A stretch of 63,621 nucleotides of DNA, the filler included. It is 6 parts of 6 records of this genome, joined end to end, with 100 filler letters (N's around TTAATTAATTAA, not from the genome) between each part and the next. Parts side by side here need not be neighbours in the genome. Positions count along the whole stretch, not along the records: positions 11,477 to 23,112 come from SRR31156797_8945; 5 more parts are not named here. One strand, written 5' to 3'. The position numbers and the translations under genes are program-made. Under the pieces are notes generated by a model. The model did not search any database and was not told where the DNA came from. It saw nothing but the letters and a program-made list of their open reading frames with translations. Position 1 is the stretch's first letter; every line of letters starts with the position of its first letter. Below are positions 1,215 to 34,829 of this stretch, one piece after another.

Positions 1215-1254
1215 TTACGGCTGCAGACAAACCGGAAAATCACCATTTTAAATT

Positions 1255-1281
1255 AAAAAATCCCTGCCGTGAGGCGGGGAT
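1255..1281 (-). terminator. probable intrinsic terminator between convergent genes
   Basis: hairpin ATCCCTGCC-GTGA-GGCGGGGAT next to A6, which is a U-run on the minus strand. Confidence 0.5.
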
Positions 1282-1306
1282 CTCAAATTACAGGCAATTA
1301 TTATAT

Positions 1307-1780: not shown

Positions 1781-2065
1781 TTTAGCGGGTAGCGACACGG
1801 CCTTCCTCGTCAAAAAAACAACATTACCGGTTCAATAAGACCTTTGGGTAACAGCATCGCCAACGCTGAATCCAAGCATTAGCGGCTGGAATGTTAATAT
1901 CATGTTACATGTCGTGTCAAGTGATATATCGCATTCAATCAAACAATGTTTTATCCCGGCGGTAATTATACTTGTGACAATGTGAGACAAGCCTTCAAAA
2001 CCAATGCCAAACCGCATATTACACTTTGGACTGTCTTTTGATTTCCTTTACTTGGCGGCGCGTTT

Positions 2066-8589: not shown

Positions 8590-10509
8590 CTATCGATATA
8601 TTAGATTGGGTAAAAACAGGGAAAAGCTTTCTACATAAGTGATCAACAGCAGTACCGCCACCAGGGGGATGAAAAACGGAGCGGTTCCCGCCAGGCACCG
8701 TTCAAATTTTATTCCCGACACACGGCTGAGTACATAGAGCACCGTTCCCACCGGAGGGGTTAGCAGGCCGATCATCAGGTTCAATACCATGATCACTCCC
8801 AGGTGAATCACATCCAGGCCCACCAGCTTGGCCAGCGGCATCAATACAGGCACCATGATGGTGATGGCGGCGATAGGCTCCAGAAAACAGCCCACTACCA
8901 GAAGGATCAGGTTGATGGTCAACAGTATCATGAATTTGGAAGTAAAATTGGTCATCACGAATTCGGCGAACAGGTTGGCCACCTGGTTACTGGTGAGAAT
9001 CCAGGCAAAGACGGCCGCGGCGCCGATGATCATCATGATAGTGGCGCTGGTGTCAATTGTTTCCATGCTGATGCTTACAAATCGTTTAATAGTCAGGGTT
9101 CGGTAAAACAGCCCCAGCAGGATGCCGTAAACCACGGCGCCGATGGCTGCTTCCGTTGGGGTGAAGATGCCGGTGAGAATTCCGCCGACGATAATGGCCG
9201 GCGTCATAAGGCTTAAAAAAGAACGTTTGAAACTGGTTGCCAGAAAATTCAGACGAAAACGGTCTTCTCTGGGATAATTCCTCTTGTGGGCCATGTAAGC
9301 CACCATGCCCATGAGGGACAAACCCATGAGCATGCCCGGAATAAATCCGGCTGCAAAGAGCTGACCCACCGAACAGGAGGCCATAACCCCGAAGGCGACC
9401 ATGGGCAGACTGGGCGGGATGATGGGGCCGATAGTGGAAGACCCGGCCGTAATGCCCACGGAGAATTCAGGATCGTACCCGGCGTCTTTCATGGCCTTGA
9501 TCTCTATCGTCCCCAGTCCGCCGGCATCGGCCACGGCCGCCCCGCTCATGCCGGCAAAGATGATGGATGCGCCCACATTGACATGGCCTAATCCGCCCGG
9601 GAGCCAGCCCACTATGGATTTGGCAAAATCAAAAAGCCGGTCCGTGATTCCCACGGAATTCATCAATGTGCCGGCCAATATGAAAAACGGGATGGCCAGC
9701 AAAGGAAAACTGTCCATCCCGTTAATCAACCGGTGTGCAATGACTACATCCGGCGCCATGCCCGAAACGAGCACATAAATATAAGCGGATCCGGCCAGGC
9801 AGAAAGCCACGGGCAGGCCGATGATAATAATTGTAAAAGCCAGGGCGAACATGAAATACAGGTTGTTGCCGCACAGGAGGGCCCAGATGGCCAAAAGGCT
9901 TAGACCGAGTATCACCAGGGGGGCGATCCAGTCGGTGAAAGAAGCTTTATAGGCAGGGTTGGCAGCCGGGGGCGCGGTGAGGTTAAGGCTGCTGCCGCCG
10001 TTCTTCCAATTTAATACGGCCACATGAATTGACCGAATCAGGTTGACCGCAATCATACCGGTGAAGATATAATAAAGGACCTTTTTGGGGACATCCACGG
10101 AGACCAGGGCGCCGAAGGTCTTGCCGGCCAATTTATGGGATACGATCATGAGAACGATGAAAAATGCAATCCTGAGCAGGTCCACCACATGTGAAAAGAT
10201 GACGCCGCCCCTGGGGCTGAGATAACGGTAAAAAAACTCCACGGAAATATGGGAATTCTTTCGGATAGCCAGGGTGGATCCCATGAGAGAACAGGCCACC
10301 AGCAGCATCCGGGCGATCTCCTCCGTCCATCCCATTGAATTGTTCAAAAAATAGCGGGTAAAAAACTGCAGGAACACCACAAGTCCCAGGGACCAGAATA
10401 GAGCCAGGGACAGATAATCTTCCAGCGCTTCCGGCCGGCTTAGTGGTTGCTCTTCCGCATCCGGCCTGGAAGTTTTGCCGGAACCTGTTTCTTTTAAGCC
10501 CATGTTCAT
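8590..10509 (-). CDS. TRAP transporter fused small+large permease (DctQ-DctM)
   Basis: N-terminal DctQ (FFTRYFLN..WTEEIAR..HISV), then DctM (SFPLLAIPFFILAG, GPIIPPS, TPTEAA, GLLTPPVG). Confidence 0.9.
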   Translation of the reverse strand: MNMGLKETGSGKTSRPDAEEQPLSRPEALEDYLSLALFWSLGLVVFLQFFTRYFLNNSMGWTEEIARMLLVACSLMGSTLAIRKNSHISVEFFYRYLSPRGGVIFSHVVDLLRIAFFIVLMIVSHKLAGKTFGALVSVDVPKKVLYYIFTGMIAVNLIRSIHVAVLNWKNGGSSLNLTAPPAANPAYKASFTDWIAPLVILGLSLLAIWALLCGNNLYFMFALAFTIIIIGLPVAFCLAGSAYIYVLVSGMAPDVVIAHRLINGMDSFPLLAIPFFILAGTLMNSVGITDRLFDFAKSIVGWLPGGLGHVNVGASIIFAGMSGAAVADAGGLGTIEIKAMKDAGYDPEFSVGITAGSSTIGPIIPPSLPMVAFGVMASCSVGQLFAAGFIPGMLMGLSLMGMVAYMAHKRNYPREDRFRLNFLATSFKRSFLSLMTPAIIVGGILTGIFTPTEAAIGAVVYGILLGLFYRTLTIKRFVSISMETIDTSATIMMIIGAAAVFAWILTSNQVANLFAEFVMTNFTSKFMILLTINLILLVVGCFLEPIAAITIMVPVLMPLAKLVGLDVIHLGVIMVLNLMIGLLTPPVGTVLYVLSRVSGIKFERCLAGTAPFFIPLVAVLLLITYVESFSLFLPNLIYR

Positions 10510-10574: not shown

Positions 10575-11376
10575 TTATTTAATTGCCTGGAGACGGTTCC
10601 AGAGTGCTTCATCCCAGGGCATTTCCTTCTGGTTCTTCTTGTAAAACTCAGCTACTTTTTTACCCATGGCCTCTTTATCAACATCTTTTATGACAATGTT
10701 GCCTTGCTGTTCAAACCAGGCAACCAGCTCGGCCTCGGCACTTTCAATACTCTTGCTGATTTTGTCGCTCATTTCCAGCATGACCTGGGTGAAAATCTTC
10801 TGTTCTTCCTTGGAAAGACTGTTCCAGAGATGTCCGCCGGTAATGGTCACCAGGTTATCCTGCATGTGCTGGGTCAGGCATATATATTTCTGGACTTCAT
10901 AGAACTTCTTGAACTTGATAATGGTCAGGGGGTTTTCCTGTGCATCCACCACGCCCTGCTGCAGGGCCAGGTAGACTTCGGCAAAAGCAATGGGTGTCGG
11001 ATTGGCGTCTACCGCTTTTGGGAATATGCCGTAGGACGGGGCGTTGGGAATACGGATTTTCAGGTTTTTCATATCTTCGGGGGTCCGAACGGCCAGATCC
11101 GTGGTGGTCACGTTTCTGGAGCCATAATAGGAAGTGCAGAAAACATGGCTTCCCGTAATCTTTTCGTATTCATCCGCAAATTCCCGGAACAGGCTGCTCT
11201 TGGCGAATTTATAGAAATGATCCAGGTTCCTGAACACATACGGGTACGAGGAAATTGCCAGAGGGGCATAGGTCCTGCCGGTAAAAGCGGCCGATGTATG
11301 AACTATATCCACGGTCCCCAGGGTCAGGCCTTCATTGATATCCACTTCCTTCCCCAAGGAAGATGCCGGAAAGACC
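10575..11376 (-). CDS. dctP: TRAP substrate-binding protein DctP (5'-partial, cut by contig end)
   Basis: frame open to the contig edge (VFPASSLGKE); LKIRIPNA, EVYLALQQGVVDAQENP, KFYEVQKY. Confidence 0.9.
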
Positions 11377-11476
11377 NNNNNNNNNNNNNNNNNNNNNNNN
11401 NNNNNNNNNNNNNNNNNNNNTTAATTAATTAANNNNNNNNNNNNNNNNNNNNNNNNNNNNNNNNNNNNNNNNNNNN
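11377..11476. other. artificial contig-joining spacer
   Basis: 44 N + TTAATTAATTAA (stop codons in all six frames) + 44 N. Confidence 0.98.
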
Positions 11477-11851
11477 CAGGCCATACCTGTAAATGGCAGC
11501 CATTTCTTCTTTCAGGTTTCCGAACAGATAGGGCGCGCTTTCCAGCTCTCCCACAGGGACTGAGCCCATCTGGTAATCAGGATGCGTATGCCCCATCTGA
11601 AGCGTACCGGCCGCGACGGCGTCGCAAAGCTTTTCCACATTCACAAGTTCGCCGTCCGCAAAAACCTTAATATCGATTTCACCTTTGGTCATTTCTTTAA
11701 CGATTTTAGCATAGTGTTCAAAAAAGTGATTTTCAGCGGCACCCCATGAATGTTGCATTCTCCACTTTGTTCCGGCACTCGCTTGAAAGGAAAACGCTGT
11801 TACCATAAAAATTGCAAATGCCAATTTGACCAACCATTTTCTGGATTTCAT
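11477..11851 (-). CDS. TRAP substrate-binding protein, TakP-like (3'-partial)
   Basis: signal peptide, KWRMQHSW, MTKGEIDIKVFADGELV, DAVAAGTLQMGH; runs into the spacer; ATG at 11851, alternative TTG at 11860. Confidence 0.8.
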
Positions 11852-12047
11852 TTTTCCCAATCTCCTTTTTTAATGTGAACTGATCTATGTTTACGATAGT
11901 CTTGCCGCTTTCAGGCCGTCTCAACGTGACGGCCCGGTAAAGCCGACCCCTTAATATCTCATCGTCAGACTCATAAACGCCGGTATATAATTTTTATCTC
12001 CTTTTTCTCAGATTTGTCCATATTATACCCGTCTATGCAAGAATAAA

Positions 12048-12593
12048 TTACCCCATATAATTTACCGTACGCGGCACCCTGACGGCATCCTTGAGAATGA
12101 CAGAGGCAAGGTTGCGTCTTTTCTGGTCCGGCCTGCCATCGGCCTGGCGCTGTTTCATCTGCTGCCCCCGAAGCTTTTTGGAAACCTTATCTGCCTCTTT
12201 GAAAACCAGTGCACCGAAATTGCACTCACTGACACAAGCCGGGCTGCCGCCGCACAGATCGCATTTATACGGAATACCAGACGCATATTGCTCTATCATT
12301 CCGTACTGGCAGGCGGAGACACACTCTCCGCAGCCGGTGCATTTATTTACGTTCACGGCAATGACACCCCGGTCATTTTTAATGATGGCTTCTTCCGGGC
12401 AGGCCTTCATACAGTCTGCATTGGGGCACTGAAAACAGACACTGGGCACGGAGTACCCTTCATGGGGAAAGTTGTTGATTTTTATCCTGGCCTTTGAGGG
12501 AATGAACATCCCTTCCTTCACGGCGGAACAGGCATAGGAACATCTGTTGCAGCCGGTGCACCGGTTCGGGATAACCAAAAGTAACTTTTCCAT
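12048..12593 (-). CDS. 4x[4Fe-4S] electron-transfer subunit (AorA/DmsB/CooF-like)
   Basis: CTGCNRCSYAC, CFQCPNADCMKACP, CTGCGECVSACQ, KCDLCGGSPACVSEC. Confidence 0.9.
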   Translation of the reverse strand: MEKLLLVIPNRCTGCNRCSYACSAVKEGMFIPSKARIKINNFPHEGYSVPSVCFQCPNADCMKACPEEAIIKNDRGVIAVNVNKCTGCGECVSACQYGMIEQYASGIPYKCDLCGGSPACVSECNFGALVFKEADKVSKKLRGQQMKQRQADGRPDQKRRNLASVILKDAVRVPRTVNYMG

Positions 12594-12636
12594 TTATATT
12601 CTCCTTATCATCGGTATAATTTATTAACGGCCTGTG

Positions 12637-15600
12637 TTAGGCATCCAGAAGATCCAGTTCCGATAATTTTTCCTCACCGGGTATTCCGTTTTCATCCCAG
12701 CCCCTGATCCGGTATAAAAGTGTCTTCATCTGTTCAAGGGCATCCACATCAAACTTGCGGCCTTCGTGGGGCCCGTTTTCAAGTGCCTTTGTCAATATTT
12801 TTTGTGAAATGGTATCGTCGGAACCGGTAATACCCGCCTTTATATTGAATAGCTTGTTCAGGTTCCAGATCCGTTCCCCGGCCTTGTTCAGGTCCATGGC
12901 AGAGATCTTTTTACCCAGCCCCTTTGTAAGGAAATCCGCCATGATTTCTGTGTCAACGGTTCCCCAGAAATCACAGAGCCCCATGGAAAATTTGACCGCA
13001 TTCAAATTCTGGTTGTTCATCACGGCCCGGCTCATTTCTTTTACTTTAAAAGGTTCTTCTTCAAACAGGGTAAAGGACCGCAGGTGACACGCCCCTCTTT
13101 CGCTGGTGGCATATCCCAGGGCCATTCCGTAGTTTCCGCGGGGATCATAGGCCGGCATTTCAAGGTTTTTGGAATGGGCTGCCTTTTCCTCGGCATCGTG
13201 TTTGGCCGCCAACTTTTGGGCGCCCAATGCCAGGTCCTTCCCCCTTGGGGTGGACCGGGTGGCGATTTCTTCGATCAGGGAAAGAAATTCCTTGGTATCG
13301 CCGAATCTGATGCCGTAATCGTGGAGTTCGGACTCGGTGATATCCATTGCAAGTCCGATGATATTACCGGTGGACATGGTATCAAGGCCGAAATCGTCAC
13401 AGAGCCGGTTAAACTTCATTACCGTCTCAAGATCATCTATCTCGCAGTTTGATCCGCCCAGGCACAGGGTCTCGTATTCAGGCCCTTCCACACTGGTGCC
13501 GTTAATGGAGGTGAACTTGCCGCAGCCCATGGGGCATGAGGCGCAGGAACGGTCACCGATTTTCACATCATCAACCGCATCTGAGTTCAGGTTCTGGCGG
13601 CCGGAACTGACGCCTTTGGTGAAGTTCCGTGTGGGATGGATACCCATCTCATTGGTCACATCAACCAGAAGGGGAGTGCCATGGGTTTTTGCCCACATGT
13701 TATCGTCGGTCAGCAGGTTGCCATAAGTATGTTCGGCCACTTTTTCATAGAAAGAACCGATCTCATTGACCTGAACACCACCGGTTCCCCTGCAGACAAC
13801 CGCCTTTAAATTTTTAGATCCGAACAGGGCCCCGGCGCCGCCCCGCCCCATCTGGCGGTAAGATTCGGAACCGATGCAGGCGAAATCGATCAAATTTTCT
13901 CCGGCAGGTCCGATGGCAAGCGTCTTGGCCTCTGCATGGATTTCATTTTTCAGCCATTCCTCGGTTTCAAAAATGCCTTTTCCGGCCAGGACACCGGCAT
14001 CTTCCAGGGTAACGCTGTTGTTTTCAATCCTGAGATACACCGGACTCTTTGCTTTTCCGGTAATAAGGATCCCGTCATATCCGGCAAATTTCAATTCAGG
14101 CCCGAAAGATCCGCCGATGTTCGACTCAAATATGGTATTGGTTTTGGGTGATTTGGACACCAAACAGGTTCGAGATGATGTGGGCACCAGGGTGCCGCAT
14201 ACCGGGCCTGTCATGATGACAACGGCATTGTCTTCGGATAAGGGGTCGACTTTCGGGTCCACGGTATCGTACAGGTACTTGGTGGCAAGACCCCAGCCGC
14301 CGATATACTTTTCCCTCAGATCTTTGGGGATTGTCTTTGCCTGGATATCGTTTTTGCTCAGATCCACATGGAGCATCTGACCGGTATACAGATATTCGTC
14401 GGGCTTTCCTTTGGGAAGTTCAATGGATTTAAACACATCTTCAATCCGGTTCAGGGATTCGTCAAGAATTTCCCAGGGCACGTTCAGGGCCGGCTCAAAA
14501 CGGATATTTTTTGCATTTGTCAGGGTTCCGGCTGTGATCACCCCCCGTGAAAAAAGGCCGGAGGCCACTTTATAGCCGATGCCGTCCGTATGGAATTCCA
14601 TGCCCAGAAGAAGCCCTAAGCCCCGTTTCTTAGCCAGGATACCGGGATACCGCTCCTGGAGATCTCCCAGTTTTTCCAGGACATACTCACCCTTTTTCTT
14701 TGCCTGGCCAGCCAAATCCTCCTCAAGGAGAACCGAGATGGCGGCAAGGGCGGATGCACATGCCAGCGGGTTGCCGCCGGTGGTGGTGGTATGCATGAAG
14801 GGGTTGGGTTCCATGCACTGCCAGATTTCAGGGGTTGCCATGAATGCTGACATGGGCACGACGCCGCCGCCAAGGGCCTTGCCGAAGCACATGATATCCG
14901 GTTTAACCTCCCAATGATCCACACCAAACAATTCTCCGGTTCTGCCGAACCCGGTCTGGACTTCATCGCAGATCATCAATACCCCGTAATGATCACACAG
15001 CTCCCTTACGCCGGGAAGATAGTCGTCCGGCGGCACAATGGCACCGGCTTCCCCCTGGATGGGCTCAAGTACGATGGCGGCGATGTCATCGCCAACGGCT
15101 CTGGCCGAGGTCAGCTCCTGTTCCATGGCTTTTAAATCTCCGAAGGGCGCCTGGCGGATACCGTCGAGAAGGGGGAGGAGCGGTTTTCTGAAAACCTGTT
15201 TTCCCATGAGGGAAAGGGCGCCCAGGGATTTACCGTGAAAAGCCTTAAGCGTTGAAATAAACCCTTTCTTGCCGGTGTAAAGCTTGGCAAGCTTCATGGC
15301 CCCGTCCACGGCTTCCGTTCCGGAATTGGCAAAAAAACCGTACTGGATCTTACCCGGCGTCAACAGCGCCAGCACTTTTGCCAGCTGGGCCCGGAGGGGA
15401 TCCAGCATCTCCTGGCTGTACTGGGGAGACCGGTCCAGCTGGGATTTAACCGCGGCCACGATTTTAGGGTGACGGATACCGTAGGAGTAAAGCCCGAACC
15501 CGCCCAGCAGATCCAGAAACTGCCTGTCCAGGGCATCCACCAGAATAGATCCCTGGCCGGTCCATTCCGTTACGGCAAATCCGGTTGCCTCTGTGACGGA

Positions 15601-15801
15601 CTTTCTATAGTCAAGGAACCCCTTATTTATATGGTCTCGAAAATTGCGGACTGTTTTTTTAGATATGTCTTCTCTTGTTTTAAGAGAAATGTCTTCGGTC
15701 GGCATAGTGATGATATCAACGATATCATCAACTTCCTTTTTGGCTGATTTGATATCTCTTATTTTATAATCATCCGGATGATATTCTTCTGTATCGATCA
15801 T
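12637..15801 (-). CDS. putrescine aminotransferase (PatA/YgjG-like) fused to an aldehyde:ferredoxin oxidoreductase (AOR)
   Basis: aa 1-~460 PatA-like: FRDHINKGFLDYRKSVT, SGTEAV, FHGKSLG, DEVQTG, PLP lysine in PDIMCFGKALGGG, HTTTTGGNP; aa ~470-1054 AOR: YTGQMLHVDL, YIGGWG, IGPAGE, GRGGAGA, CASCPMGC, GPEYET, DDFGLD, ERGACH, GLCDF, RGWDENG. Confidence 0.9.
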   Translation of the reverse strand: MIDTEEYHPDDYKIRDIKSAKKEVDDIVDIITMPTEDISLKTREDISKKTVRNFRDHINKGFLDYRKSVTEATGFAVTEWTGQGSILVDALDRQFLDLLGGFGLYSYGIRHPKIVAAVKSQLDRSPQYSQEMLDPLRAQLAKVLALLTPGKIQYGFFANSGTEAVDGAMKLAKLYTGKKGFISTLKAFHGKSLGALSLMGKQVFRKPLLPLLDGIRQAPFGDLKAMEQELTSARAVGDDIAAIVLEPIQGEAGAIVPPDDYLPGVRELCDHYGVLMICDEVQTGFGRTGELFGVDHWEVKPDIMCFGKALGGGVVPMSAFMATPEIWQCMEPNPFMHTTTTGGNPLACASALAAISVLLEEDLAGQAKKKGEYVLEKLGDLQERYPGILAKKRGLGLLLGMEFHTDGIGYKVASGLFSRGVITAGTLTNAKNIRFEPALNVPWEILDESLNRIEDVFKSIELPKGKPDEYLYTGQMLHVDLSKNDIQAKTIPKDLREKYIGGWGLATKYLYDTVDPKVDPLSEDNAVVIMTGPVCGTLVPTSSRTCLVSKSPKTNTIFESNIGGSFGPELKFAGYDGILITGKAKSPVYLRIENNSVTLEDAGVLAGKGIFETEEWLKNEIHAEAKTLAIGPAGENLIDFACIGSESYRQMGRGGAGALFGSKNLKAVVCRGTGGVQVNEIGSFYEKVAEHTYGNLLTDDNMWAKTHGTPLLVDVTNEMGIHPTRNFTKGVSSGRQNLNSDAVDDVKIGDRSCASCPMGCGKFTSINGTSVEGPEYETLCLGGSNCEIDDLETVMKFNRLCDDFGLDTMSTGNIIGLAMDITESELHDYGIRFGDTKEFLSLIEEIATRSTPRGKDLALGAQKLAAKHDAEEKAAHSKNLEMPAYDPRGNYGMALGYATSERGACHLRSFTLFEEEPFKVKEMSRAVMNNQNLNAVKFSMGLCDFWGTVDTEIMADFLTKGLGKKISAMDLNKAGERIWNLNKLFNIKAGITGSDDTISQKILTKALENGPHEGRKFDVDALEQMKTLLYRIRGWDENGIPGEEKLSELDLLDA

Positions 15802-15835
15802 TTAGCTTAACCCTCCTTTGTGAATTGTCTTGAAA

Positions 15836-15876
15836 GGCAAAAATCAGACCGGCAAAAATCAAACCGGCAAAAACCG
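15836..15876. repeat. 15-bp tandem repeat, about 2.7 copies, intergenic
   Basis: GGCAAAAATCAGACC GGCAAAAATCAAACC GGCAAAAACCG. Confidence 0.8.
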
Positions 15877-15884
15877 TTTTTGCG

Positions 15885-17636
15885 TCAATCCCTTGGAATC
15901 CCCTCGGCATCCCATCCTCTGAGTTTATAGTAATCAGACACAAGCCTGTTCAGCTCGTCCCTGGTTATTCCCTTGTCGCCGGGCAGGGCCTGGTCAAAAA
16001 ACCGCGGCGGAAGGGTATCATCCTTCCTCGTCAGCCCTTCTCTCAGGTTATACCGCCGGGTATCGTCCTTGATCCGGTTGGAGATTCTTTCAAGATCTCC
16101 TCGTTGATACTGAACGCCGGTGGCAAGGAAGAGGCTTTTTGCCAACTCTTCCCAGGTATAAATGTCCCTGAAAAAACGGCAGAGGATCAGGGAATCAAAC
16201 AGGGTGCACCGGTTTTCAAAATCAATGAACAGTTCTGCTTTTCCCTCTATGGCATCAGGTGAAATCATCCCGGCCAGCTCCGGCTTGTAAAAGGTGGCGC
16301 GAAGGTGGCAGGCCCCGCGCTCACAAACGGCATAGGCAAGCCCCATTCCCTTTAACACCCTGGGATCGTACCCTGCCGGCTCCATGCCCTTGACATGGAC
16401 GGCCTCTTTTTCCATATTCAATTTCCGGGCGGCGTCTTTAATTCCTGAGGCCAGAATATCCCCCAGCCCCTGGCGGCGGGAGATGTCCTGGATAAGTGCG
16501 GCCGCGGCATCTGGGGAACCATAATCTATTTCAGACCTGATCCTGCCCTTCCGGGAGGCCTCCATGGCCAGCGCCACAAGATTTCCCGATGAGATCGTAT
16601 CAACACCGAGGCGGTCGCACAGTTCATTTAAATAGACGATCTCCTCAATGTCGTCTATCAGGCACAATCCGCCGAAGGCATACAGGGTCTCATACTCCGG
16701 TCCTTCAAGTGTGAGCCCTTTATGGCGTCCCCGGCCCACCCGTACGTTTTTGCCGCAGCCTAAAAAGCAGTCCATGCAGGCATGGGGCTGGGGATTGATC
16801 CGTTGGGCAATGGCCGGTGCATTAATTTTATCCTTTGTGGCCAGTTCCCCTTTGTTCCAGTATTCTGTCGGAAAGGCCCCGGCCTTGTTCATGATATCCA
16901 CCATCATGGGCGTACCCATTGTGCGGTAGGCATGAACCACCGGATCATCCTTCAGGCGGCGGAACATCTCTTTTTTATACTGCTTGATACCGGAAGGATC
17001 ATGAAATTGCCTTTTCCTGTCCCCGTGGCACACAATCCCTTTTATCTTTTTGGACCCCAGGACCGCTCCCATTCCCGTGCGGCCCGCCACCCGGTGTTTG
17101 TCGTTTTTGATAACCGCAAAGGCAACCAGGTTCTCTCCTGCAGGTCCGATGACCATGATCCCGGGCCGTTTTGCCTCAACCTTGTTTTTTAAAAGGGTCT
17201 CCGTTTCAAATGTATCTTTCCCCCACAGGTCCCGGGCATCATGAAAGACAACCGTTTCAGGCGTAATTTCCAGCCACAGGGGGGTGTCTGACGCCTCCCG
17301 TATGGTGATGATGTCAACACCTGTCCGGCTTAAGGGGGTGGCAAAACTTCCCCCGGAGTATGACTCGCCGTATCCGCCTGTCAAAGGGGATTTGGCAAAA
17401 ACACCGTACCGGCATGAGCCGAAAATCGAACTTCCCGAAAAAGGGCCTGCCGCGATCAGCAATTGATTATCAGGCCCCAGGGGATCAACACCTGAAGGGC
17501 AGTTTTCCAGCATTAAACGGGTGGCAAGACCTTTCCCCCCCAGGGTTTCGCGGACAAGGTCCCTGTCCAGATCCTCATAAAAGAAAGCCTTTTTACAAAC
17601 GTCGACGATCAGGTGCCTATAAAAAAAACCTTTCAT
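15885..17636 (-). CDS. aldehyde:ferredoxin oxidoreductase family protein (stand-alone AOR)
   Basis: LGGKGLA, KSPLTG, IGPAGE, AGRTGMGAVLGSK, CMDCFLGC, GPEYET, DRLGVD, ERGACH, RGWD; start MKGFFY at 17636, just after the gabT stop. Confidence 0.9.
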   Translation of the reverse strand: MKGFFYRHLIVDVCKKAFFYEDLDRDLVRETLGGKGLATRLMLENCPSGVDPLGPDNQLLIAAGPFSGSSIFGSCRYGVFAKSPLTGGYGESYSGGSFATPLSRTGVDIITIREASDTPLWLEITPETVVFHDARDLWGKDTFETETLLKNKVEAKRPGIMVIGPAGENLVAFAVIKNDKHRVAGRTGMGAVLGSKKIKGIVCHGDRKRQFHDPSGIKQYKKEMFRRLKDDPVVHAYRTMGTPMMVDIMNKAGAFPTEYWNKGELATKDKINAPAIAQRINPQPHACMDCFLGCGKNVRVGRGRHKGLTLEGPEYETLYAFGGLCLIDDIEEIVYLNELCDRLGVDTISSGNLVALAMEASRKGRIRSEIDYGSPDAAAALIQDISRRQGLGDILASGIKDAARKLNMEKEAVHVKGMEPAGYDPRVLKGMGLAYAVCERGACHLRATFYKPELAGMISPDAIEGKAELFIDFENRCTLFDSLILCRFFRDIYTWEELAKSLFLATGVQYQRGDLERISNRIKDDTRRYNLREGLTRKDDTLPPRFFDQALPGDKGITRDELNRLVSDYYKLRGWDAEGIPRD

Positions 17637-17637
17637 C

Positions 17638-18942
17638 CTAGCGCTCCAGTTCGTGGAAACTTTCTTCCAGTATGGCCAGCCCTCTTTCCAGCTCCTCATC
17701 AGAGATGACAAAGGGCATCAGGGTCCGGATGACATTTCCGAAATTACCGCAGGAAAGAATGATCAATCCTTTTTCATAGCAGAGCCGAACCAGTTTTTTG
17801 GCCTCTTCGGCAGCAGGTTCCCTGGTCTCCCTGTCCTTTACCAGCTCCATGCCCAGCATGGGGCCTTTTCCCCTGACGTCACCGATGATTTCAAACTGAT
17901 GGGCAAGGGTTGTAAACCGGTCCCAAAGGATCTTTCCAAGGGATTCAGCCTTGGACAAAAGATTGTCTTCAATCAGGATGTCCAGCACGGCCAGGGCTGC
18001 GGCACAGGAGACCGGGTTGCCGCCGTAGGTTCCGCCCAGGCCGCCGACATGGGGTTTATCCATCAGATCTGAACGGCCGGTGACGGCGCTTAAAGGCATG
18101 CCGCCTGCAAAACTTTTTGCCAGGGTGATCATATCCGGTTCAACACCCCAGTGCTCAATGGCGAAGAACTTTCCTGTTCTTCCCGCACCGGCCTGAATTT
18201 CATCAATGATCAGGGGAATGTCGTATTTTTCACATATGGTTTTCAGCCTGGGGAAATATTCCGGGGGCGGGGTGATGAACCCGCCCTCTCCCTGGATGGG
18301 TTCTGCGATGACGGCAGCCGTATTCTCAGGGGCGACATTGCCGATGAAAAAGTCTTCCAGATGGTCTGCGCAGGCGGTATTGCAGGCAGGATATTTCAAA
18401 TTAAACGGACAGCGGTAACAATAGGCATAGGGCATTCTGTATATTTCAGGTACAAAGGGCCCGAAATTCAACTTGTAAGGTTTAACTTTACTGGTCAGGC
18501 TCATGGCCATCTGGGTACGTCCGTGAAAGGCATTCTCAAAACAGATGATCCCTGTTCTCTTTGTGGCATATCTGGCTATTTTAACGGCATTTTCCACGGC
18601 TTCGGCCCCGGAATTGGCAAACATCGTCATCTTGTCAAAATTACCGGGGGCAAGGGCGTTTAATTTTTCCGCAAGCTCCACATAGGGTTCATACATGGCC
18701 ACATGAAAGCAGGTATGGATATACGATTCTGCCTGATCCGCTATGGCCTTTACAACTTTCGGATGGCTGTGGCCGACGTTGTTGACGCCGATACCGCCTG
18801 CAAAATCGATATACGTCTTCCCGTCCACATCCGTCATACTTGCCCCTTGAGCCCTCTTAATGAACGCAGTGGTGGTATTAAAAGGACCCTGGGGAATATT
18901 TTTGTTTCTTCGTTCGATGAGCTCGCAGCTTAGCGACGACAT
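17638..18942 (-). CDS. gabT: 4-aminobutyrate--2-oxoglutarate transaminase
   Basis: DFAGGIGVNNVGH, HTCFHV..YEPY, NSGAEAVENAVKIAR, EPIQGEGGF, AKSFAGG, GGLGGTYGGNP. Confidence 0.9.
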   Translation of the reverse strand: MSSLSCELIERRNKNIPQGPFNTTTAFIKRAQGASMTDVDGKTYIDFAGGIGVNNVGHSHPKVVKAIADQAESYIHTCFHVAMYEPYVELAEKLNALAPGNFDKMTMFANSGAEAVENAVKIARYATKRTGIICFENAFHGRTQMAMSLTSKVKPYKLNFGPFVPEIYRMPYAYCYRCPFNLKYPACNTACADHLEDFFIGNVAPENTAAVIAEPIQGEGGFITPPPEYFPRLKTICEKYDIPLIIDEIQAGAGRTGKFFAIEHWGVEPDMITLAKSFAGGMPLSAVTGRSDLMDKPHVGGLGGTYGGNPVSCAAALAVLDILIEDNLLSKAESLGKILWDRFTTLAHQFEIIGDVRGKGPMLGMELVKDRETREPAAEEAKKLVRLCYEKGLIILSCGNFGNVIRTLMPFVISDEELERGLAILEESFHELER

Positions 18943-18967
18943 AATAGTCTCCCAAAATAATTGAGTA

Positions 18968-19009
18968 CGGCTGTTCCAGCCCGGCTGTTTCAGCCCGGCC
19001 GTTCCAGCC
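18968..19009. repeat. three tandem 14-bp units, each a GGCTG-N3-CAGCC mini-palindrome, in the gabT leader
   Basis: CGGCTGTTCCAGCC CGGCTGTTTCAGCC CGGCCGTTCCAGCC. Confidence 0.85.
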
Positions 19010-19103
19010 TATTTATGCAGCAAGTTTGATTTTTGTCGATTTTGCCGATTTGATGGCTTGACTTTGCAATATCAAATCGACGAGACGACCCCTATCGACC
19101 CAA

Positions 19104-19130
19104 ATAATACTATTAATATTCGATTGTCAA
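19104..19130 (-). promoter_or_regulatory. possible sigma70 promoter of the gabT operon
   Basis: minus strand TTGACA - 15 nt - TATTAT; the spacing is short, so this is tentative. Confidence 0.4.
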
Positions 19131-19320
19131 CCATTATTTCCATATTCACGTACGAAAACATCACTTTTGTATGTTAAAATCGAATATTCGAAATTCGAAC
19201 TTGTTTTCCAATCCCCTGCCGTGCTAATACGTCAATTAACAGACCGCCGTGTCAGAGACTGACAAAATAATGGCCTAAAAATTTCTTTTAAACCCTGTTA
19301 CAAAATTATTGAGGTGATTT

Positions 19321-19770
19321 TTGAATTTAAATGTCGATGATATTGATGCCCAAATTATAAAAATACTGAATGCAGACGGCAGAACCCGCAATACGGAAAT
19401 TGCAAAACAACTGAACTTATCGGAAACAGCCATCCGGAAACGGATTAAGAAACTTCTTGATGATGAAGTGATTCAAATCGTAGCCGTTATCAACCAGGAA
19501 AAACTGGGATATATAATCGGAGGCAATATAAAAATTAAAACCGACATCAAAAAAACGGATGTGGTGATCAACAACCTGAACAACCTGGAAGGAATCTGGT
19601 ACATTGCCCAGCTTACCGGGGCCTACGACTTTGATGTGGAATTCAGGGCAAGATCCAATGAAGAGCTCAATAAATTGATCCAGAAAATCAATTTAACCGA
19701 AGGCGTTCTGGAAACCCACGTATCCTTCCGGCTCAAGTTAATCAGGAACCGGAACGACTGGGAAAAATAG
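19321..19770 (+). CDS. Lrp/AsnC family transcriptional regulator
   Basis: DDIDAQIIKILNADGR..IAKQLNLSETAIRKRIKKL HTH; TGAYDF in the RAM domain; TTG start with GAGGTG RBS; divergent from gabT. Confidence 0.92.
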   Translation: MNLNVDDIDAQIIKILNADGRTRNTEIAKQLNLSETAIRKRIKKLLDDEVIQIVAVINQEKLGYIIGGNIKIKTDIKKTDVVINNLNNLEGIWYIAQLTGAYDFDVEFRARSNEELNKLIQKINLTEGVLETHVSFRLKLIRNRNDWEK

Positions 19771-19832
19771 AATGACCGGCACTGGCGGATCAACCTGCCG
19801 ATCATGGAATTAGCAGATAAAAACGGCCGAAA

Positions 19833-22790
19833 ATGAAACCGACACCAATGAATCAAAAATCGTCTCGGTACAAAGTATTCCATAAACTGATGCAGAAAAA
19901 AGTCAGGCAGATCCTCCTGGTCTCCACCTCCTATGAGGCCTGGGTTCTGGAGGAGGACGGCCGGCTTTCAGAGCAGATTACAAACGAATATAAGGGGTTG
20001 AATCTAAGCCACCCCCCGCAGTTGAACTGGGTTTCCTCCCTACCCTGCGCCCTGGAACAAATTGAGCATACCCGGTATGACCTTGTGATCATCATCAGCC
20101 GCACCATAGACACCAAGGTGTATGAAACAGGAGCCCGGATCAAAGACAAAGCCCGGGACATGCCTGTGGTCGTATTGTCTCATCAGGAATCCCCGCCTGA
20201 AAACCATACCCGGTTTCACGCCATGTCCTCGCATATTGACCAGATTTTTTTCTGGTCCGGGGATGCCGGTATCCTGCTGGCCATTATCAAGTGTATCGAA
20301 GACCGGATGAATGTATTTGATGACACCCGCCGTGCAGGCATCAGGGTGATCATCTTTGTTGAAGATTCACCGTTTTACCGGTCATCCATCCTGCCGATCT
20401 TATACAAAGAGCTGGTGGTAGAGACCCAGGCGGTCATTGATGACGGCCTGAACGAGGAACACAGGATCCTGTATATGCGTGCCCGTCCCAAAATCCTTTT
20501 GGCCGGATCATACGAGCAGGCCAAAAGGTTATACGAACAATTCAAACCCTATGTCCTGGGCGTAATCTCCGATGTAAGATTTCCCTCAAACGGCGGTATT
20601 GATGCCAAAGCCGGGCTTAAACTTCTCCGCTACATTAAAGGGGATCGATTTGACATCCCCTTGCTCCTGGCCAGTTCCGAACCGGAAAATGCCCTGCCGG
20701 CATCAAAAATCCCTGCGGTTTTCATCGATAAAAACGCCCGGACCCTCAGAGAAAAAATCGCAGCCTTCCTTATGGACCATCTCGGATTCGGATCTTTTAT
20801 CTTCAAGCTGCCCGACGGTCGGAAAATAGGAACGGCAACCGACCTGTATACCCTTGAACAGCAGCTGCGGACCATTCCGGATGAGTCTTTTGTATTTCAC
20901 TGCCAATGCAATGATTTTTCCAGGTGGTTGTTTTCCCTTGCTGAAGTCGAACTGGCATCAAGACTGAGGCCCCTGAGGAATACCGATTTCAAAAGTGTCG
21001 AAAACCACAGGCAGCACCTGATCAGTCTCATCCAACACCATCGGAAAAACCGCTTAAAAGGGGTTATTGTAGACTTTGACCCGGACAGGTTCGATCCGGA
21101 CACAAACTTTTCCAAAATAGGGAAAGGCTCCCTGGGGGGTAAAGCCAGGGGGCAGGCCTTTATATCATCCCTGCTGAACAGATCCCCTGAACTGTTGCAG
21201 GAGGCTGAAACCGTGGATATCTTCGTCCCCCAGACCCTTGTGGTCACCACCCAAGGATTTGACACCTTTATCCGGATGAACCGTTTTGAAAATTTCGTTC
21301 TGGAAGACAATAGCGATGACGTCATTGCAGACCGGTTTATGGCGGCGGATTTTCCGGAACCGCTCCGTTCAAAACTTGCGGCATATCTTAAGACCATAGG
21401 CTACCCTCTGGCCGTCAGGTCGTCCAGCCTTTTGGAAGATGCGCAATTCAAGCCCTATGCCGGATTATACAGCACCTATTTCCTTGCCAATGACCATGAA
21501 GACCTTGACTGCCGTGTCAACCAGCTGGTCGATACCATCAAGATGGTATATGCCTCCACGTATTTCAAGGCACCAAAGGCCTTCTCCGCCAGTGTGGGAA
21601 ACAGGATGGAAAATGAGAAAATGGCTGTCATCATTCAGCAGGTGGTTGGCCGCCGTTACCAAGACTCTTTTTATCCCGCCGTCTCCGGTGTTGCCCAGTC
21701 AACAAATTACTACCCGTTTTCAAAAATGAAGCCTGAAGACGGGGTTGTCAGCATGGCAATGGGGCTGGGTAAGGCTGTAATGGAAGGGGAAAGAACTTTG
21801 CGCTGCTGCCCGCGGTTCCCCGGGATCCTGCCTGACCGCTCGACCATTGAGGACATCCTGGAAAACGCTCAGCATGAATTCTACACCCTGAGAATGAACG
21901 ATCCGGAATGCCGTATCGGAATGAACCAAGCGGTCACCCTTGAAAAAAAAGAGATTTATGCGGCAAAACACCATGATGTGGTGCCGCTTCTGACCAGCAC
22001 CTATTTTCCCCAGGACAACCGCATCCGGGATATTTCCTCTTCATCCGGCTATCCGGTACTGACCTTTGCCCCACTGCTGAAACAGAGGCGGTATCCGTTC
22101 CTGAGCATCATTACCAAATTGCTTGACACGGCAAAAAACGAGTTCGGATGCCCTGTTGAAATGGAATTTGTCCTGGATCTGCCCTCAAATAGTAATGCAG
22201 CGGCCGGATTTGCAGTGGTCCAGGTCCGTCCCATGAGTGCAAAGCAAGACACTGCCGACATCCATATCACCGATAAAGAGAAAACCTTGGCATTCTGCCT
22301 TTCGCATATGGCTTTGGGAAACACGGCTGATGATAAAATAAGGGATGTGGTATACGTCAGGCCCGATAATTTTGATCCCGCTAGAACAAAAGAAATTGCA
22401 GATGAGATTTCCGGGATCAACGCCTCATTAAAGAGGGCAGGCAGAAAATACATACTCATCGGACCGGGACGGTGGGGATCTTCAGACCCCTGGCTGGGCA
22501 TCCCGGTAAACTGGGAAGCCATCAGTCATGCGGGATCCATTGTTGAAGCAACCCATCCTTTGATAAAAGCCGATCCCTCCCAGGGATCCCATTTTTTCCA
22601 TAACATCATTGCCCTTGGGATCAATTATCTCACCCTGGTTGACGGCCCCTCCGACCGCATGGATTACGGACATCTCAACGGTTTGGAGCGCATCTGCTCA
22701 ACCCGGCATGTGATCCATGCCAGATCATCTTCCGGCCTTATCCTTAAAGTCGACGGCCGAAAAGGTATCGGAGTCCTCTATGAAACCTGA
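19833..22790 (+). CDS. PEP synthase/PPDK nucleotide-binding-domain protein with receiver-like N-terminus
   Basis: GSLGGKARG, PLAVRSSSLLED, YAGLYST, EKMAVIIQ, PVEMEF, VQVRP, IGPGRWGSSDPWLGIPV, PSQGSHFFHN; no phospho-His swivel domain or PEP-binding barrel recognised. Confidence 0.8.
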   Translation: MKPTPMNQKSSRYKVFHKLMQKKVRQILLVSTSYEAWVLEEDGRLSEQITNEYKGLNLSHPPQLNWVSSLPCALEQIEHTRYDLVIIISRTIDTKVYETGARIKDKARDMPVVVLSHQESPPENHTRFHAMSSHIDQIFFWSGDAGILLAIIKCIEDRMNVFDDTRRAGIRVIIFVEDSPFYRSSILPILYKELVVETQAVIDDGLNEEHRILYMRARPKILLAGSYEQAKRLYEQFKPYVLGVISDVRFPSNGGIDAKAGLKLLRYIKGDRFDIPLLLASSEPENALPASKIPAVFIDKNARTLREKIAAFLMDHLGFGSFIFKLPDGRKIGTATDLYTLEQQLRTIPDESFVFHCQCNDFSRWLFSLAEVELASRLRPLRNTDFKSVENHRQHLISLIQHHRKNRLKGVIVDFDPDRFDPDTNFSKIGKGSLGGKARGQAFISSLLNRSPELLQEAETVDIFVPQTLVVTTQGFDTFIRMNRFENFVLEDNSDDVIADRFMAADFPEPLRSKLAAYLKTIGYPLAVRSSSLLEDAQFKPYAGLYSTYFLANDHEDLDCRVNQLVDTIKMVYASTYFKAPKAFSASVGNRMENEKMAVIIQQVVGRRYQDSFYPAVSGVAQSTNYYPFSKMKPEDGVVSMAMGLGKAVMEGERTLRCCPRFPGILPDRSTIEDILENAQHEFYTLRMNDPECRIGMNQAVTLEKKEIYAAKHHDVVPLLTSTYFPQDNRIRDISSSSGYPVLTFAPLLKQRRYPFLSIITKLLDTAKNEFGCPVEMEFVLDLPSNSNAAAGFAVVQVRPMSAKQDTADIHITDKEKTLAFCLSHMALGNTADDKIRDVVYVRPDNFDPARTKEIADEISGINASLKRAGRKYILIGPGRWGSSDPWLGIPVNWEAISHAGSIVEATHPLIKADPSQGSHFFHNIIALGINYLTLVDGPSDRMDYGHLNGLERICSTRHVIHARSSSGLILKVDGRKGIGVLYET

Positions 22791-23213: not shown

Positions 23214-23738
23214 GCCACCCAGAACCCCATCGAACAGGAAGGGACCTATCCCCTGCCTGAAGCCCAGGTGGACCGGTTCATGCTCAAGGTGGTCATATCC
23301 TACCCGTCGGTCTCCGAGGAACGGATCATCCTGGACGTAGTGGATACAACCGAGCCGGCACCCAAGGTGAATCCCGTGGTCCAGGTGGAAGACATCCTGA
23401 GGTCCAGGCAGGTGGTGAACACCATCTACATGGATGACAAGGTCAAAGACTATATTGTGAGCCTCGTCTACGCCACAAGGGAACCGGAAAGCTACGGTCT
23501 CGACCTCTCACCCTATATAGAGAACGGCGCATCTCCCCGGGCCACCATCAACCTGAAAACCGCCAGCAAATCGCTGGCCTTTCTTCAGGGAAGGGGTTAC
23601 GTCACCCCGGAAGATGTGAAATCCATCGCCATGGATGTGTTGAGGCACCGGGTGAGCATCACCTATGAAGCGGAGGCCGAATCGCTTACCAGCGAAGATA
23701 TGGTCACAAAAATCCTGGAAACCATTCCGGTCCCCTGA
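23214..23738 (+). CDS. moxR: MoxR family AAA+ ATPase (5'-partial)
   Basis: frame from the contig edge reads [34 protein letters not shown]. Confidence 0.92.
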
Positions 23739-23782
23739 GGGAGTCGGCAAAAGCCCGCACACTGTAAAAAAAGGAAGGCATC

Positions 23783-26658: not shown

Positions 26659-26684
26659 AACGCTTTAAGAAAGGAAATAGAACC

Positions 26685-34483: not shown

Positions 34484-34829
34484 CATATGGGTAGTCTTAA
34501 ATACCTTCTTCTCATAAATTCAAACCTCCGTTCCAACAATTTTCAAACTAAATTGACCTTTTTCATGAAAGATCCAGCGGCTCTGATTAAGATCATTTCA
34601 TAAAATTTCGACAGGTGCAAAAAGGTTAGTGATGTAAAAGATAAATTGGGCTCATAACAGCCATATTTAATAACAACTTTGGAGGAGTGCGTTCTGAAAA
34701 ACACCGGTGGCGGCAGGCAATGGAAAGATAAAAGAATTTCAGTGTGTAAGGAGAAATTCAAAAAGACCAAAGCCTTTATCATTCTGCCAGCGGCTTGGAA
34801 AAAAAGAAATTTCGAAAACTTTTTCATTT

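What the first reader, a model, noticed from the sequence alone, without database searches (positions are those of the whole stretch)
12637..15801. Putrescine aminotransferase::AOR fusion protein (1054 aa)
Seen: one uninterrupted ORF with a PatA-like PLP enzyme, including the PatA-type N-terminal extension and the catalytic Lys, joined by ELPKGKPDE (~nt 14395-14425) to a complete AOR with pterin and 4Fe-4S motifs. The AOR N-terminal motif (YTGQMLHVDL) begins before the nearest Met and has no SD sequence, which argues for a true fusion. Known: 4-aminobutanal cyclises spontaneously to 1-pyrroline. Inference: the fusion channels the unstable aminoaldehyde from the PLP site to the metallopterin site, a PLP plus tungstopterin bifunctional architecture I do not recognise from characterised enzymes.
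Basis: partly seen in the sequence, partly recalled or inferred. Interest (0 to 1): 0.9.

Follow-up and report, generated by a model that had tools for sequence, protein, structure and literature searches.

The report
Putrescine aminotransferase fused to tungsten-type aldehyde oxidoreductase
A marine sulfate reducer carries one long gene that joins an enzyme making a reactive amino-aldehyde from putrescine to an oxygen-sensitive enzyme that should oxidise that aldehyde at once; the fusion is real and widespread in its relatives but has never been studied.

Summary
Confirmed. An uninterrupted 1054-aa ORF lies at 12637-15801 on the minus strand: a PatA/YgjG-type class III aminotransferase (residues 1-465), an ~8-residue linker and a complete AOR-family domain (469-1054). 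It is not an assembly artefact. The same fusion is in 117 of the 120 best database hits, in 19 of 301 sampled genomes of the order, in two single-contig genomes and in 50 of 80 metagenome loci. Catalytic residues of both halves are invariant in 105 of 105 full-length homologues.

An AorA-like four-cluster ferredoxin gene always follows the fusion. Here GabT and a second, stand-alone AOR precede it, and an Lrp-type regulator is divergent. Split relatives exist (L090/L091): patA stop, 9 nt, in-frame aorB start "MNLY". Half of the fused proteins still carry that Met, so the fusion arose by stop-codon loss. Other PatA relatives are followed by an NAD-type aldehyde dehydrogenase or by another AOR clade.

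Best reading: ferredoxin-linked putrescine to GABA, and with GabT and AOR2 on to succinate. Channelling is not shown; both structure attempts were uninformative. Databases call the protein only "putrescine aminotransferase", and ten literature searches found no description. Earlier notes of this scan saw split PatA-AOR operons on other DNA, and one mentions such fusions.

The parts
12637..15801 (-). Fusion gene, 1054 aa (P0001): PatA-type aminotransferase joined to an AOR
14407..15801 (-). PatA/YgjG-like PLP domain, residues 1-465. It carries Lys308, Asp279, Glu251, Gln282, Arg434, Thr340 and Phe188
   Evidence: 4uox, E 2.5e-143; residue list from PMC4244111; invariance
14395..14421 (-). Linker ELPKGKPDE (residues 461-469). 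Residue 469 aligns with the relic start Met of the ancestral AOR gene
12637..14394 (-). AOR domain (AFOR_N + AFOR_C), residues 470-1054, plus the stop codon. It carries Cys753/756/760/943, Glu777 and His906
12048..12593 (-). AorA-like polyferredoxin, 181 aa, 16 Cys in four cluster motifs
   Evidence: 8c0z_C, E 6.3e-29; 9mqx_E, E 1.3e-28; synteny
15885..17636 (-). Stand-alone AOR ('AOR2'), about 34% identical to the fused AOR domain. The likely start is the ATG at 17636, 1 nt after the GabT stop; the mechanical ORF call begins at TTG 17711
17638..18942 (-). GabT, 4-aminobutyrate--2-oxoglutarate transaminase, 434 aa
   Evidence: TIGR00700, 554.3 bits against a cut-off of 506.65
19321..19770 (+). 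Divergent Lrp/AsnC-family regulator
   Evidence: conserved position
15802..15884 (-). Spacer between AOR2 and the fusion, with three TTTTTGCC(GGT) direct repeats and the ribosome-binding site
   Evidence: read from the sequence; function not tested

Best explanation
The gene encodes a bifunctional enzyme of anaerobic diamine breakdown.

Proposed reaction sequence:
- The N-terminal PLP domain transfers one amino group of putrescine (probably cadaverine too) to 2-oxoglutarate, giving 4-aminobutanal.
- The C-terminal AOR domain (metallopterin plus a [4Fe-4S] cluster) oxidises that aldehyde to GABA.
- The AOR domain passes the electrons to the AorA-like four-cluster ferredoxin encoded directly downstream.
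- In this operon GabT then makes succinate semialdehyde, and the stand-alone AOR2 oxidises it to succinate.

This gives a putrescine-to-succinate route in which both aldehyde oxidations yield low-potential (ferredoxin-level) electrons instead of NAD(P)H.

Shown: the fusion is real, conserved and of single origin. Both active sites are intact. The ferredoxin gene is always linked. The fusion arose from an adjacent in-frame patA-aorB pair by loss of a stop codon.

Inferred: the substrates, the metal (W rather than Mo), the direction of the reaction, and the idea that the short fixed-length linker lets the aminoaldehyde be handed over before it cyclises to 1-pyrroline.
For: (1) Domains and residues. 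PatA equivalog NF008570 is above its cut-off. E. coli YgjG 4uox matches at E 2.5e-143. Every PLP and substrate residue named in PMC4244111 (passages read) is present and invariant in 105 of 105 full-length homologues. The AOR domain matches 9mqx_D at E 2.6e-130 and 1aor at E 3.7e-119, with the four cluster cysteines and the equivalents of Glu313 and His448 invariant.

(2) Conservation.
- 117 of the 120 best hits to the junction region carry PF00202 + PF02730.
- 19 of 301 sampled genomes of the order have an open frame of 987-1118 aa across the junction without stops.
- The fusion is present in a 3.76-Mb single contig and a 5.77-Mb chromosome.
- Of 80 metagenome loci, 40 are fused through to the end of the AOR, 10 are fused but cut by the contig end, 3 are broken, 4 are cut before the junction and 23 are stand-alone.

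(3) Ferredoxin. Its best PDB matches are the AorA subunits 8c0z_C and 9mqx_E. It follows the fusion in all 12 genome loci with an uninterrupted fused gene (L001-L012) and in 35 of 40 complete metagenome loci. The other 5 have under 400 nt of downstream sequence.

(4) Operon. GabT passes TIGR00700. AOR2 starts 1 nt after GabT.

(5) Origin. L090/L091 read patA ...KSIAV-stop, then GGAGGAGAC, then ATG-MNLYTG in the same frame, followed by aorA. The nearest stand-alone AORs start MNLYAGK. Position 469 is still Met in 55 of 105 fused proteins. The fused AOR domains form one group (support 96-99) inside a clade with support 100 that also holds the split and stand-alone forms. Only one 50%-identity cluster in 1.84 billion representatives spans the junction at full length.

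(6) Displacement logic. Of 23 stand-alone PatA relatives, 9 have an AOR gene directly downstream, from at least two distinct AOR clades. L079 has an NAD-type Aldedh gene 15 nt downstream. L100 has GabT plus a MoCo aldehyde oxidoreductase. L086 has a CN-hydrolase.
Against: - No activity, metal content or protein data exist for any member.
- The older PatA model TIGR03372 is below its cut-off (502 against 658.65), so substrate preference may differ from E. coli PatA.
- No polyamine transporter lies in the operon. The neighbouring transporter is a TRAP type.
- No AorC-like FAD subunit is adjacent, so the final electron acceptor is unknown.
- GabT and AOR2 are not always linked to the fusion. Of the 12 genome loci with an uninterrupted fused gene, both are seen beside it in 4, GabT alone in 2, AOR2 alone in 2 and neither in 4; two of those 4 (L004, L007) hold little or no upstream sequence.
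- The gene is interrupted in 3 of 80 metagenome loci, and L014 is frameshifted.
- RNA-library contigs from one marine-sediment study cover pieces of both halves, but none bridges the linker by 31 nt on each side, and DNA carry-over is not excluded.
- The AlphaFold model is poor (pLDDT 66.8, pTM 0.60; the PatA half is mostly below 50), so nothing is known about domain packing.
Confidence: 0.7

Rival explanations
1. Same chemistry, but no channelling. The fusion only fixes 1:1 stoichiometry and co-assembly of two enzymes that already worked side by side, and the aminoaldehyde or 1-pyrroline equilibrates with the bulk solution.
For: Split patA-aorB-aorA operons (L090/L091) and PatA followed by other AOR clades evidently work unfused. 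The fusion needed only the loss of a stop codon in an in-frame pair, which is a cheap event. No model supports an interface.
Against: Linker length is fixed, with 1 indel among 105 sequences, and the fusion has been kept across a family down to about 68% identity. That hints at a constrained geometry but does not prove it.
Confidence: 0.4
2. The main substrate is another omega-amine (cadaverine, another diamine or an amino-alcohol-derived amine), not putrescine. The downstream pair would then act on 5-aminovalerate and glutarate semialdehyde, or similar compounds.
For: TIGR03372 is below its cut-off. E. coli YgjG also takes cadaverine (PMC4244111, passages read). The AOR clade is only about 57% identical to its nearest stand-alone relatives, which sit in other amine-related contexts.
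Against: NF008570 is above its cut-off and all YgjG active-site residues are kept. GabT passes the GABA-transaminase model. One PatA relative sits beside a CN-hydrolase of the N-carbamoylputrescine-amidase family, a family assignment by Pfam only.
Confidence: 0.15
3. The enzyme runs in reverse as an acid-to-amine machine. Reduced ferredoxin drives the AOR domain to reduce GABA (or another acid) to the aldehyde, which the PLP domain aminates to a diamine.
For: AORs are known to reduce acids when supplied with low-potential electrons (PMC10816221, abstract seen and figure-legend passages). Transaminases are reversible.
Against: The operon pairs the fusion with GabT and a second AOR under an Lrp-type regulator, which is a catabolic layout. 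PatA relatives are followed by one-way NAD aldehyde dehydrogenases. Acid reduction is strongly uphill (general knowledge, recalled).
Confidence: 0.04
4. Artefact or decaying gene: an assembly join, a sequencing error that removed a stop codon, or a fusion with one dead half.
For: 3 of 80 metagenome loci, and L014, carry interrupted copies. The deep contig that spans the locus comes from the probable source run and so is not independent.
Against: There are many independent assemblies, including closed long-read genomes. Catalytic residues of both halves are invariant in 105 of 105 homologues.
Confidence: 0.01

Closest known systems
E. coli putrescine transaminase pathway: PatA/YgjG, PatD/YdcW, GabT/PuuE, GabD
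   Same: Same order of reactions. The PatA half matches YgjG (4uox) at E 2.5e-143 with all active-site residues. GabT is present in the operon.
   Different: Both NAD(P)-dependent aldehyde dehydrogenases are replaced by AOR-family enzymes, and the first of these is covalently fused to PatA.
Two-subunit and three-subunit bacterial AORs: AorAB(C) of Aromatoleum aromaticum (PDB 8c0z) and the AOR of PDB 9mqx
   Same: The catalytic domain is of the AorB type and a four-cluster AorA-like ferredoxin is encoded next to it.
   Different: It carries a 465-aa aminotransferase on its N-terminus. No AorC-like FAD subunit is in the operon. A narrow physiological substrate is predicted, rather than the broad aldehyde range reported for those enzymes (recalled).
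PutA (proline dehydrogenase fused to P5C dehydrogenase)
   Same: Works alike in principle: the enzyme that makes a cyclising amino-aldehyde or imine is fused to the enzyme that oxidises it (review PMC12041015, passages read).
   Different: Unrelated folds and cofactors. A tunnel is established for PutA (recalled) and is untested here.
Split patA-aorB-aorA operons in metagenomes (L090, L091)
   Same: Same three components in the same order. PatA is about 69.5% identical, the AOR about 58% and the ferredoxin about 53%.
   Different: A stop codon plus 9 nt (GGAGGAGAC) separates patA from aorB, in the same frame.

Membership tests
Putrescine aminotransferase PatA/YgjG (class III PLP aminotransferase) | Score above the curated equivalog cut-off | tested here: met
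   NF008570 scores 641.5 against 612. The older model TIGR03372 scores 502 against 658.65, which is not met.
Putrescine aminotransferase PatA/YgjG (class III PLP aminotransferase) | Schiff-base Lys and the PLP and substrate residues of YgjG (Lys300, Asp271, Glu243, Gln274, Arg426, Thr332, Phe180, Val273, Gly150, Thr151) | tested here: met
   The equivalents are K308, D279, E251, Q282, R434, T340, F188, V281, G161 and T162, by the alignment to 4uox. The residue list is from PMC4244111. All are invariant in the family.
Putrescine aminotransferase PatA/YgjG (class III PLP aminotransferase) | Extra N-terminal helix that adds to the dimer interface | tested here: inconclusive
   There is an N-terminal extension of about 43 residues. 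NF008570 aligns from residue 29. The model shows a helix at 17-32, but at low confidence.
Putrescine aminotransferase PatA/YgjG (class III PLP aminotransferase) | Activity with putrescine and 2-oxoglutarate | not testable with these tools
   Needs an enzyme assay.
AOR family (tungsten/molybdenum bis-pyranopterin aldehyde:ferredoxin oxidoreductases) | AFOR_N plus AFOR_C domains at full length | tested here: met
   PF02730 covers 1-199 of 199 positions and PF01314 covers 13-385 of 385. The domain aligns end to end with 1aor and 9mqx.
AOR family (tungsten/molybdenum bis-pyranopterin aldehyde:ferredoxin oxidoreductases) | Four Cys ligands of the [4Fe-4S] cluster and the active-site Glu and His (Cys288/291/295/494, Glu313 and His448 of P. 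furiosus AOR; residue roles recalled) | tested here: met
   C753, C756, C760, C943, E777 and H906 align with them and are invariant in 105 of 105 homologues.
AOR family (tungsten/molybdenum bis-pyranopterin aldehyde:ferredoxin oxidoreductases) | Tungsten (or Mo) pterin actually bound | not testable with these tools
   Needs metal analysis.
AorAB(C)-type multi-subunit AOR | Adjacent polyferredoxin subunit with four [4Fe-4S] motifs | tested here: met
   8c0z_C at E 6.3e-29 and 9mqx_E at E 1.3e-28. 16 Cys. Always linked to the fusion.
AorAB(C)-type multi-subunit AOR | FAD/NAD-binding AorC subunit in the operon | tested here: not met
   No such gene lies between 8590 and 22790. An FAD/NAD/2Fe-2S reductase lies far away at 38830-39990.
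Substrate-channelling bifunctional enzymes (PutA-like logic) | A defined interdomain interface or tunnel between the two active sites | tested here: inconclusive
   The model has pTM 0.60 and the PatA half has pLDDT below 50. No coordinates were available for measurement.

The most novel reading that the evidence does not exclude
The fusion is a true channelling machine, the first enzyme known to couple a PLP site to a tungstopterin site. 4-Aminobutanal would pass from one site to the other without release. The protein would assemble through the PatA dimer with AorA polyferredoxins into an electron-conducting complex. Together with GabT and AOR2 it would give sulfate reducers a putrescine-to-succinate route that captures four ferredoxin-level electrons per putrescine.
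Probability: 0.3. Interest if true: 0.75.

Novelty: new variant of a known kind. Interest (0 to 1): 0.6.

Why it matters
The physiological substrates of most AOR-family enzymes are unknown or broad. Here the fusion partner names the substrate, which makes the question directly testable.

It also points to an anaerobic, ferredoxin-linked way of burning polyamines. Polyamines are common products of decaying biomass in marine sediment, and this route conserves low-potential electrons that the textbook NAD-dependent pathway wastes.

The natural pair of fused and split forms (this gene and L090/L091) is a ready-made experiment on what a fusion buys for an unstable, self-cyclising intermediate.

For annotation: hundreds of database entries named "putrescine aminotransferase" are in fact two enzymes in one chain.

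Tried and rejected
- Complex prediction with the PatA domain (44-465) against the AOR domain (472-1049): no verdict, score 0.00 against a mark of 0.32; controls were not run. It says nothing either way.
- AlphaFold2 on the 105-row alignment: mean pLDDT 66.8 and pTM 0.60, with the PatA half mostly below 50. It cannot be used for an interface or a tunnel. The alignment is too shallow (68% identity or more).
- Read support: the only DNA run that holds the stretch is the probable source, so its 7.5-kb contig at about 105x depth is not independent.
- RNA-library contigs of one study (X2-X4) cover scattered pieces at 88-99% identity, but none bridges the linker. This is no proof of transcription or of habitat.
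- Rfam scan: no Moco or other riboswitch lies in front of the operon.
- Promoter and terminator scan of 11300-19900: nothing above chance that defines the operon ends.
- No whole genome is held for the window, so tungstate uptake, Moco synthesis and NAD-type aldehyde dehydrogenases of this organism could not be checked.
- L013, a stand-alone PatA, has DUF362 and polyferredoxin neighbours and no AOR. It is uninformative.
- The nine closest stand-alone AOR loci (L015-L023) have no PatA beside them: 0 of 9.
- A GabT-AOR fusion turned up only as a single sequence (P0339, covering 57% of GabT), so it is not a family.
- Literature: ten searches found nothing on this fusion (one search was a malformed term). 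Subscription journals and supplementary files were not searchable.
Full report
OBSERVATION. The window holds one uninterrupted ORF at 12637..15801 on the minus strand, 1054 aa. Its ATG follows AAAGGAGGG. Pfam finds Aminotran_3 (82-456), AFOR_N (474-673) and AFOR_C (699-1051), each far above its cut-off. NCBIfam's putrescine aminotransferase equivalog NF008570 is passed (641.5 against 612), while the older TIGR03372 is not (502 against 658.65). The linker ELPKGKPDE is residues 461-469 (nt 14395-14421). The first Met behind it (M476) is already inside the AOR fold, and that position is V, M, I or L in relatives.

NOT AN ARTEFACT.
- A search with the junction region (residues 380-620) listed 120 best hits. 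117 of them carry PF00202 and PF02730, and 104 are 1040-1100 aa long.
- A scan of species-representative genomes gave 14 loci. Twelve have an uninterrupted fused gene, one has it with frameshifts (L014), and one is a stand-alone PatA (L013).
- Two of the fused genes lie on a 3.76-Mb single contig and a 5.77-Mb chromosome, with open frames of 1054 aa.
- In a sample of 301 genomes of the same order, 19 have a junction-spanning match in an open frame of 987-1118 aa without stops. In 401 genomes of the phylum only two did, and both were already known from the order.
- Of 80 metagenome loci fetched with a PatA-domain alignment, 40 are fused through to the AOR end, 10 are fused but cut by a contig end, 3 are interrupted, 4 end before the junction, and 23 are stand-alone PatA genes.
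- At 50% clustering of about 15 billion proteins, a single full-length representative (P0044) spans the junction. Three fragments do as well, and the rest of the best 150 match only the AOR N-domain.
So this is one tight family.

BOTH HALVES LOOK ACTIVE. The PatA half matches E. coli YgjG (4uox) at E 2.5e-143. The YgjG structure paper (PMC4244111, passages read) names Lys300, Asp271, Glu243, Gln274, Arg426, Thr332*, Phe180, Val273, Gly150 and Thr151. Their equivalents (K308, D279, E251, Q282, R434, T340, F188, V281, G161, T162) are present and invariant in the family. The AOR half aligns end to end with 9mqx_D (E 2.6e-130), P. furiosus AOR 1aor (E 3.7e-119) and Aromatoleum AorB 8c0z_A (E 1.5e-97). 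The CxxCxxxC...C cluster ligands and the equivalents of Glu313 and His448 (roles recalled) are invariant in 105 of 105 homologues. The linker has a fixed length, with one indel among 105 sequences.

OPERON. The genes on the minus strand, in order, are:
- GabT (17638-18942), which passes TIGR00700 at 554.3 against 506.65.
- A stand-alone AOR, here called AOR2. It is only about 34% identical to the fused AOR domain. Its likely ATG lies 1 nt after the GabT stop.
- The fusion.
- A 181-aa protein with 16 cysteines in four cluster motifs. Its best solved relatives are the AorA subunits of the two bacterial AOR complexes: 8c0z_C at E 6.3e-29 and 9mqx_E at E 1.3e-28.
An Lrp/AsnC regulator is divergent. 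The ferredoxin gene follows the fusion in all 12 genome loci with an uninterrupted fused gene (L001-L012). It also follows in 35 of 40 complete metagenome loci, and the other five have under 400 nt of downstream sequence. GabT and AOR2 are variable: among those 12 genome loci both are seen beside the fusion in 4, GabT alone in 2, AOR2 alone in 2 and neither in 4, two of which (L004, L007) hold little or no upstream sequence. No AorC-like FAD subunit and no polyamine transporter lie in the operon. A TRAP system lies downstream.

ORIGIN. The nine closest stand-alone AORs (56-58% identical) all have the same type of ferredoxin downstream. None has a PatA gene beside it. They begin MNLYAGK. The fused family has the consensus ...KTIELPRRxxPMNLYAGQ. 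Position 469 is Met in 55 of 105 sequences and position 470 is Asn in 70 of 105. Two metagenome loci, L090 and L091, hold the split form. There patA ends ...KSIAV-stop, then comes GGAGGAGAC, then ATG-MNLYTG in the same reading frame, followed by aorA. In FastTree trees the fused, split and stand-alone AORs form one clade (support 100). The fused ones form a single group (support 96-99), and the order of the three groups is unresolved. I infer that an in-frame patA-aorB pair lost its stop codon once.

COMPARATIVE CONTEXT. Of the 23 stand-alone PatA relatives (66-75% identical), 9 have an AOR-family gene starting within 400 nt downstream. Two of these AORs belong to the fused clade's lineage. 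Six of the other seven match the window's AORs at only 27-29% identity; four of them were placed in a tree and form one distant clade. The ninth (L094) is a short, unplaced match at a contig end. Four of the 14 without an AOR have less than 250 nt of downstream sequence. Elsewhere the neighbours are:
- An NAD-type aldehyde dehydrogenase 15 nt downstream (L079).
- GabT plus a xanthine-dehydrogenase-family MoCo aldehyde oxidoreductase (L100).
- A GabT-like gene plus an Fe-alcohol dehydrogenase (L102).
- A CN-hydrolase (L086).
In the PatA relatives whose neighbours I read, the gene after PatA was most often an aldehyde oxidiser, and it came from interchangeable families (an AOR in nine loci, an NAD-type aldehyde dehydrogenase in L079). 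This is the strongest indirect argument that the fused AOR domain oxidises PatA's product. A relative's genome holds a third pair of aminotransferase and AOR beside a TRAP transporter (L024).

MECHANISM. Steps inferred from family knowledge:
- Putrescine + 2-oxoglutarate -> 4-aminobutanal + glutamate, in the PLP domain.
- 4-Aminobutanal + H2O -> GABA + 2 e-, in the AOR domain, with the electrons passed to the AorA-like ferredoxin.
- GABA -> succinate semialdehyde, by GabT.
- Succinate semialdehyde -> succinate, by AOR2.
The acid/aldehyde couple is very negative (recalled, about -580 mV), so ferredoxin can be reduced where the aerobic pathway makes NAD(P)H. 4-Aminobutanal cyclises to 1-pyrroline (recalled). 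A short, rigid link could favour capture before release, but this is not shown.

STRUCTURE AND EXPRESSION. The AlphaFold2 model from the 105-row alignment is poor (pLDDT 66.8, pTM 0.60, PatA half mostly below 50). It gives no interface. A contig of the probable source run spans 12000-18985 at about 105x with 3 differences, which is not independent evidence. Contigs of three RNA libraries from one marine-sediment study cover pieces of both halves, but none bridges the linker.

WHAT IS KNOWN. NCBI and JGI name these proteins "putrescine aminotransferase" or, more rarely, "aldehyde:ferredoxin oxidoreductase". One member comes from a record named Olavius sp. associated proteobacterium Delta 1. Ten full-text searches found no paper on the fusion or on an AOR in putrescine breakdown. 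For the review PMC12041015 and the papers PMC3543383, PMC10816221 and PMC5320631 I read only the matching passages, and none mentions it. Subscription journals and supplements were out of reach. Earlier notes of this scan describe split PatA-AOR polyamine operons in Chloroflexota, Bacillota and Dehalococcoidia, and one says such fusions exist. I did not inspect those loci, but my own metagenome loci show the same pairing. AOR fusions as such are not unique: two AOR representatives carry a C-terminal OMP-decarboxylase/HUMPS-family domain.

VERDICT. This is a real, conserved, single-origin fusion of two well-known enzyme families in a new arrangement, with a clear and testable predicted function. 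Channelling is open. It is a new variant of a known kind; interest 0.6.

Noticed in passing
window 34829-34909 (-): A c-di-GMP-I-GGC riboswitch aptamer (RF03167) scores 60.1 bits against a gathering score of 59.
   Followed up: no
window 10575-11860 (-): The DctP solute-binding gene of the TRAP system appears as two ORFs, 11429-11860 (profile positions 14-85) and 10575-11357 (profile positions 41-282). This may be a frameshift or a partial duplication. A fused DctQM gene lies at 8590-10509.
   Followed up: no
window 15805-15884 (-): The spacer between AOR2 and the fusion holds three direct repeats of TTTTTGCC(GGT). They may be a regulator site or an internal promoter element.
   Followed up: no
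P0129 (992 aa), P0211 (832 aa): Two AOR-family representatives carry a C-terminal OMP-decarboxylase/HUMPS-family domain (the hexulose-phosphate-synthase family). This may be another case of an aldehyde-handling enzyme fused to an AOR.
   Followed up: partly
P0342, P0343, P0349, P0360; P0339: Four single-member proteins join Aldedh to Aminotran_3 (819-987 aa), the NAD-type counterpart of the fusion studied here. One single-member protein, P0339 (915 aa), is an apparent GabT-AOR fusion.
   Followed up: no
L024 (G003:C32) 495-7930: A close relative's genome has a third module: a TRAP transporter, a class III aminotransferase (36% identical to GabT) and an AOR (about 30% identical) as separate genes.
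   Followed up: partly
L017 3166-6962; L020 1462-8548: The sister stand-alone AOR + AorA modules sit beside an MttB-family methyltransferase (L017), or beside a PotABCD-like ABC transporter and an EutQ-like cupin (L020). This hints at other amine-derived aldehydes as substrates.
   Followed up: partly
L088, L092, L095, L099: Three of these four loci (L088, L092, L099) have a stand-alone PatA followed by an AOR of another clade and then a Na_H_antiporter-family (NhaC-type) membrane protein; in L095 the NhaC-type gene follows PatA with no AOR. It is a candidate transporter for this pathway.
   Followed up: no
window 23268-30724 (+): A BatA-BatD-like cluster (AAA lid, DUF58, VWA, TPR, BatD) lies on the plus strand.
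   Followed up: no
window 38830-48221 (-): A cluster holds a flavin amine-oxidoreductase-like protein, an FAD/NAD/2Fe-2S reductase, a periplasmic binding protein, branched-chain-type ABC permeases and an AMP-binding enzyme.
   Followed up: no
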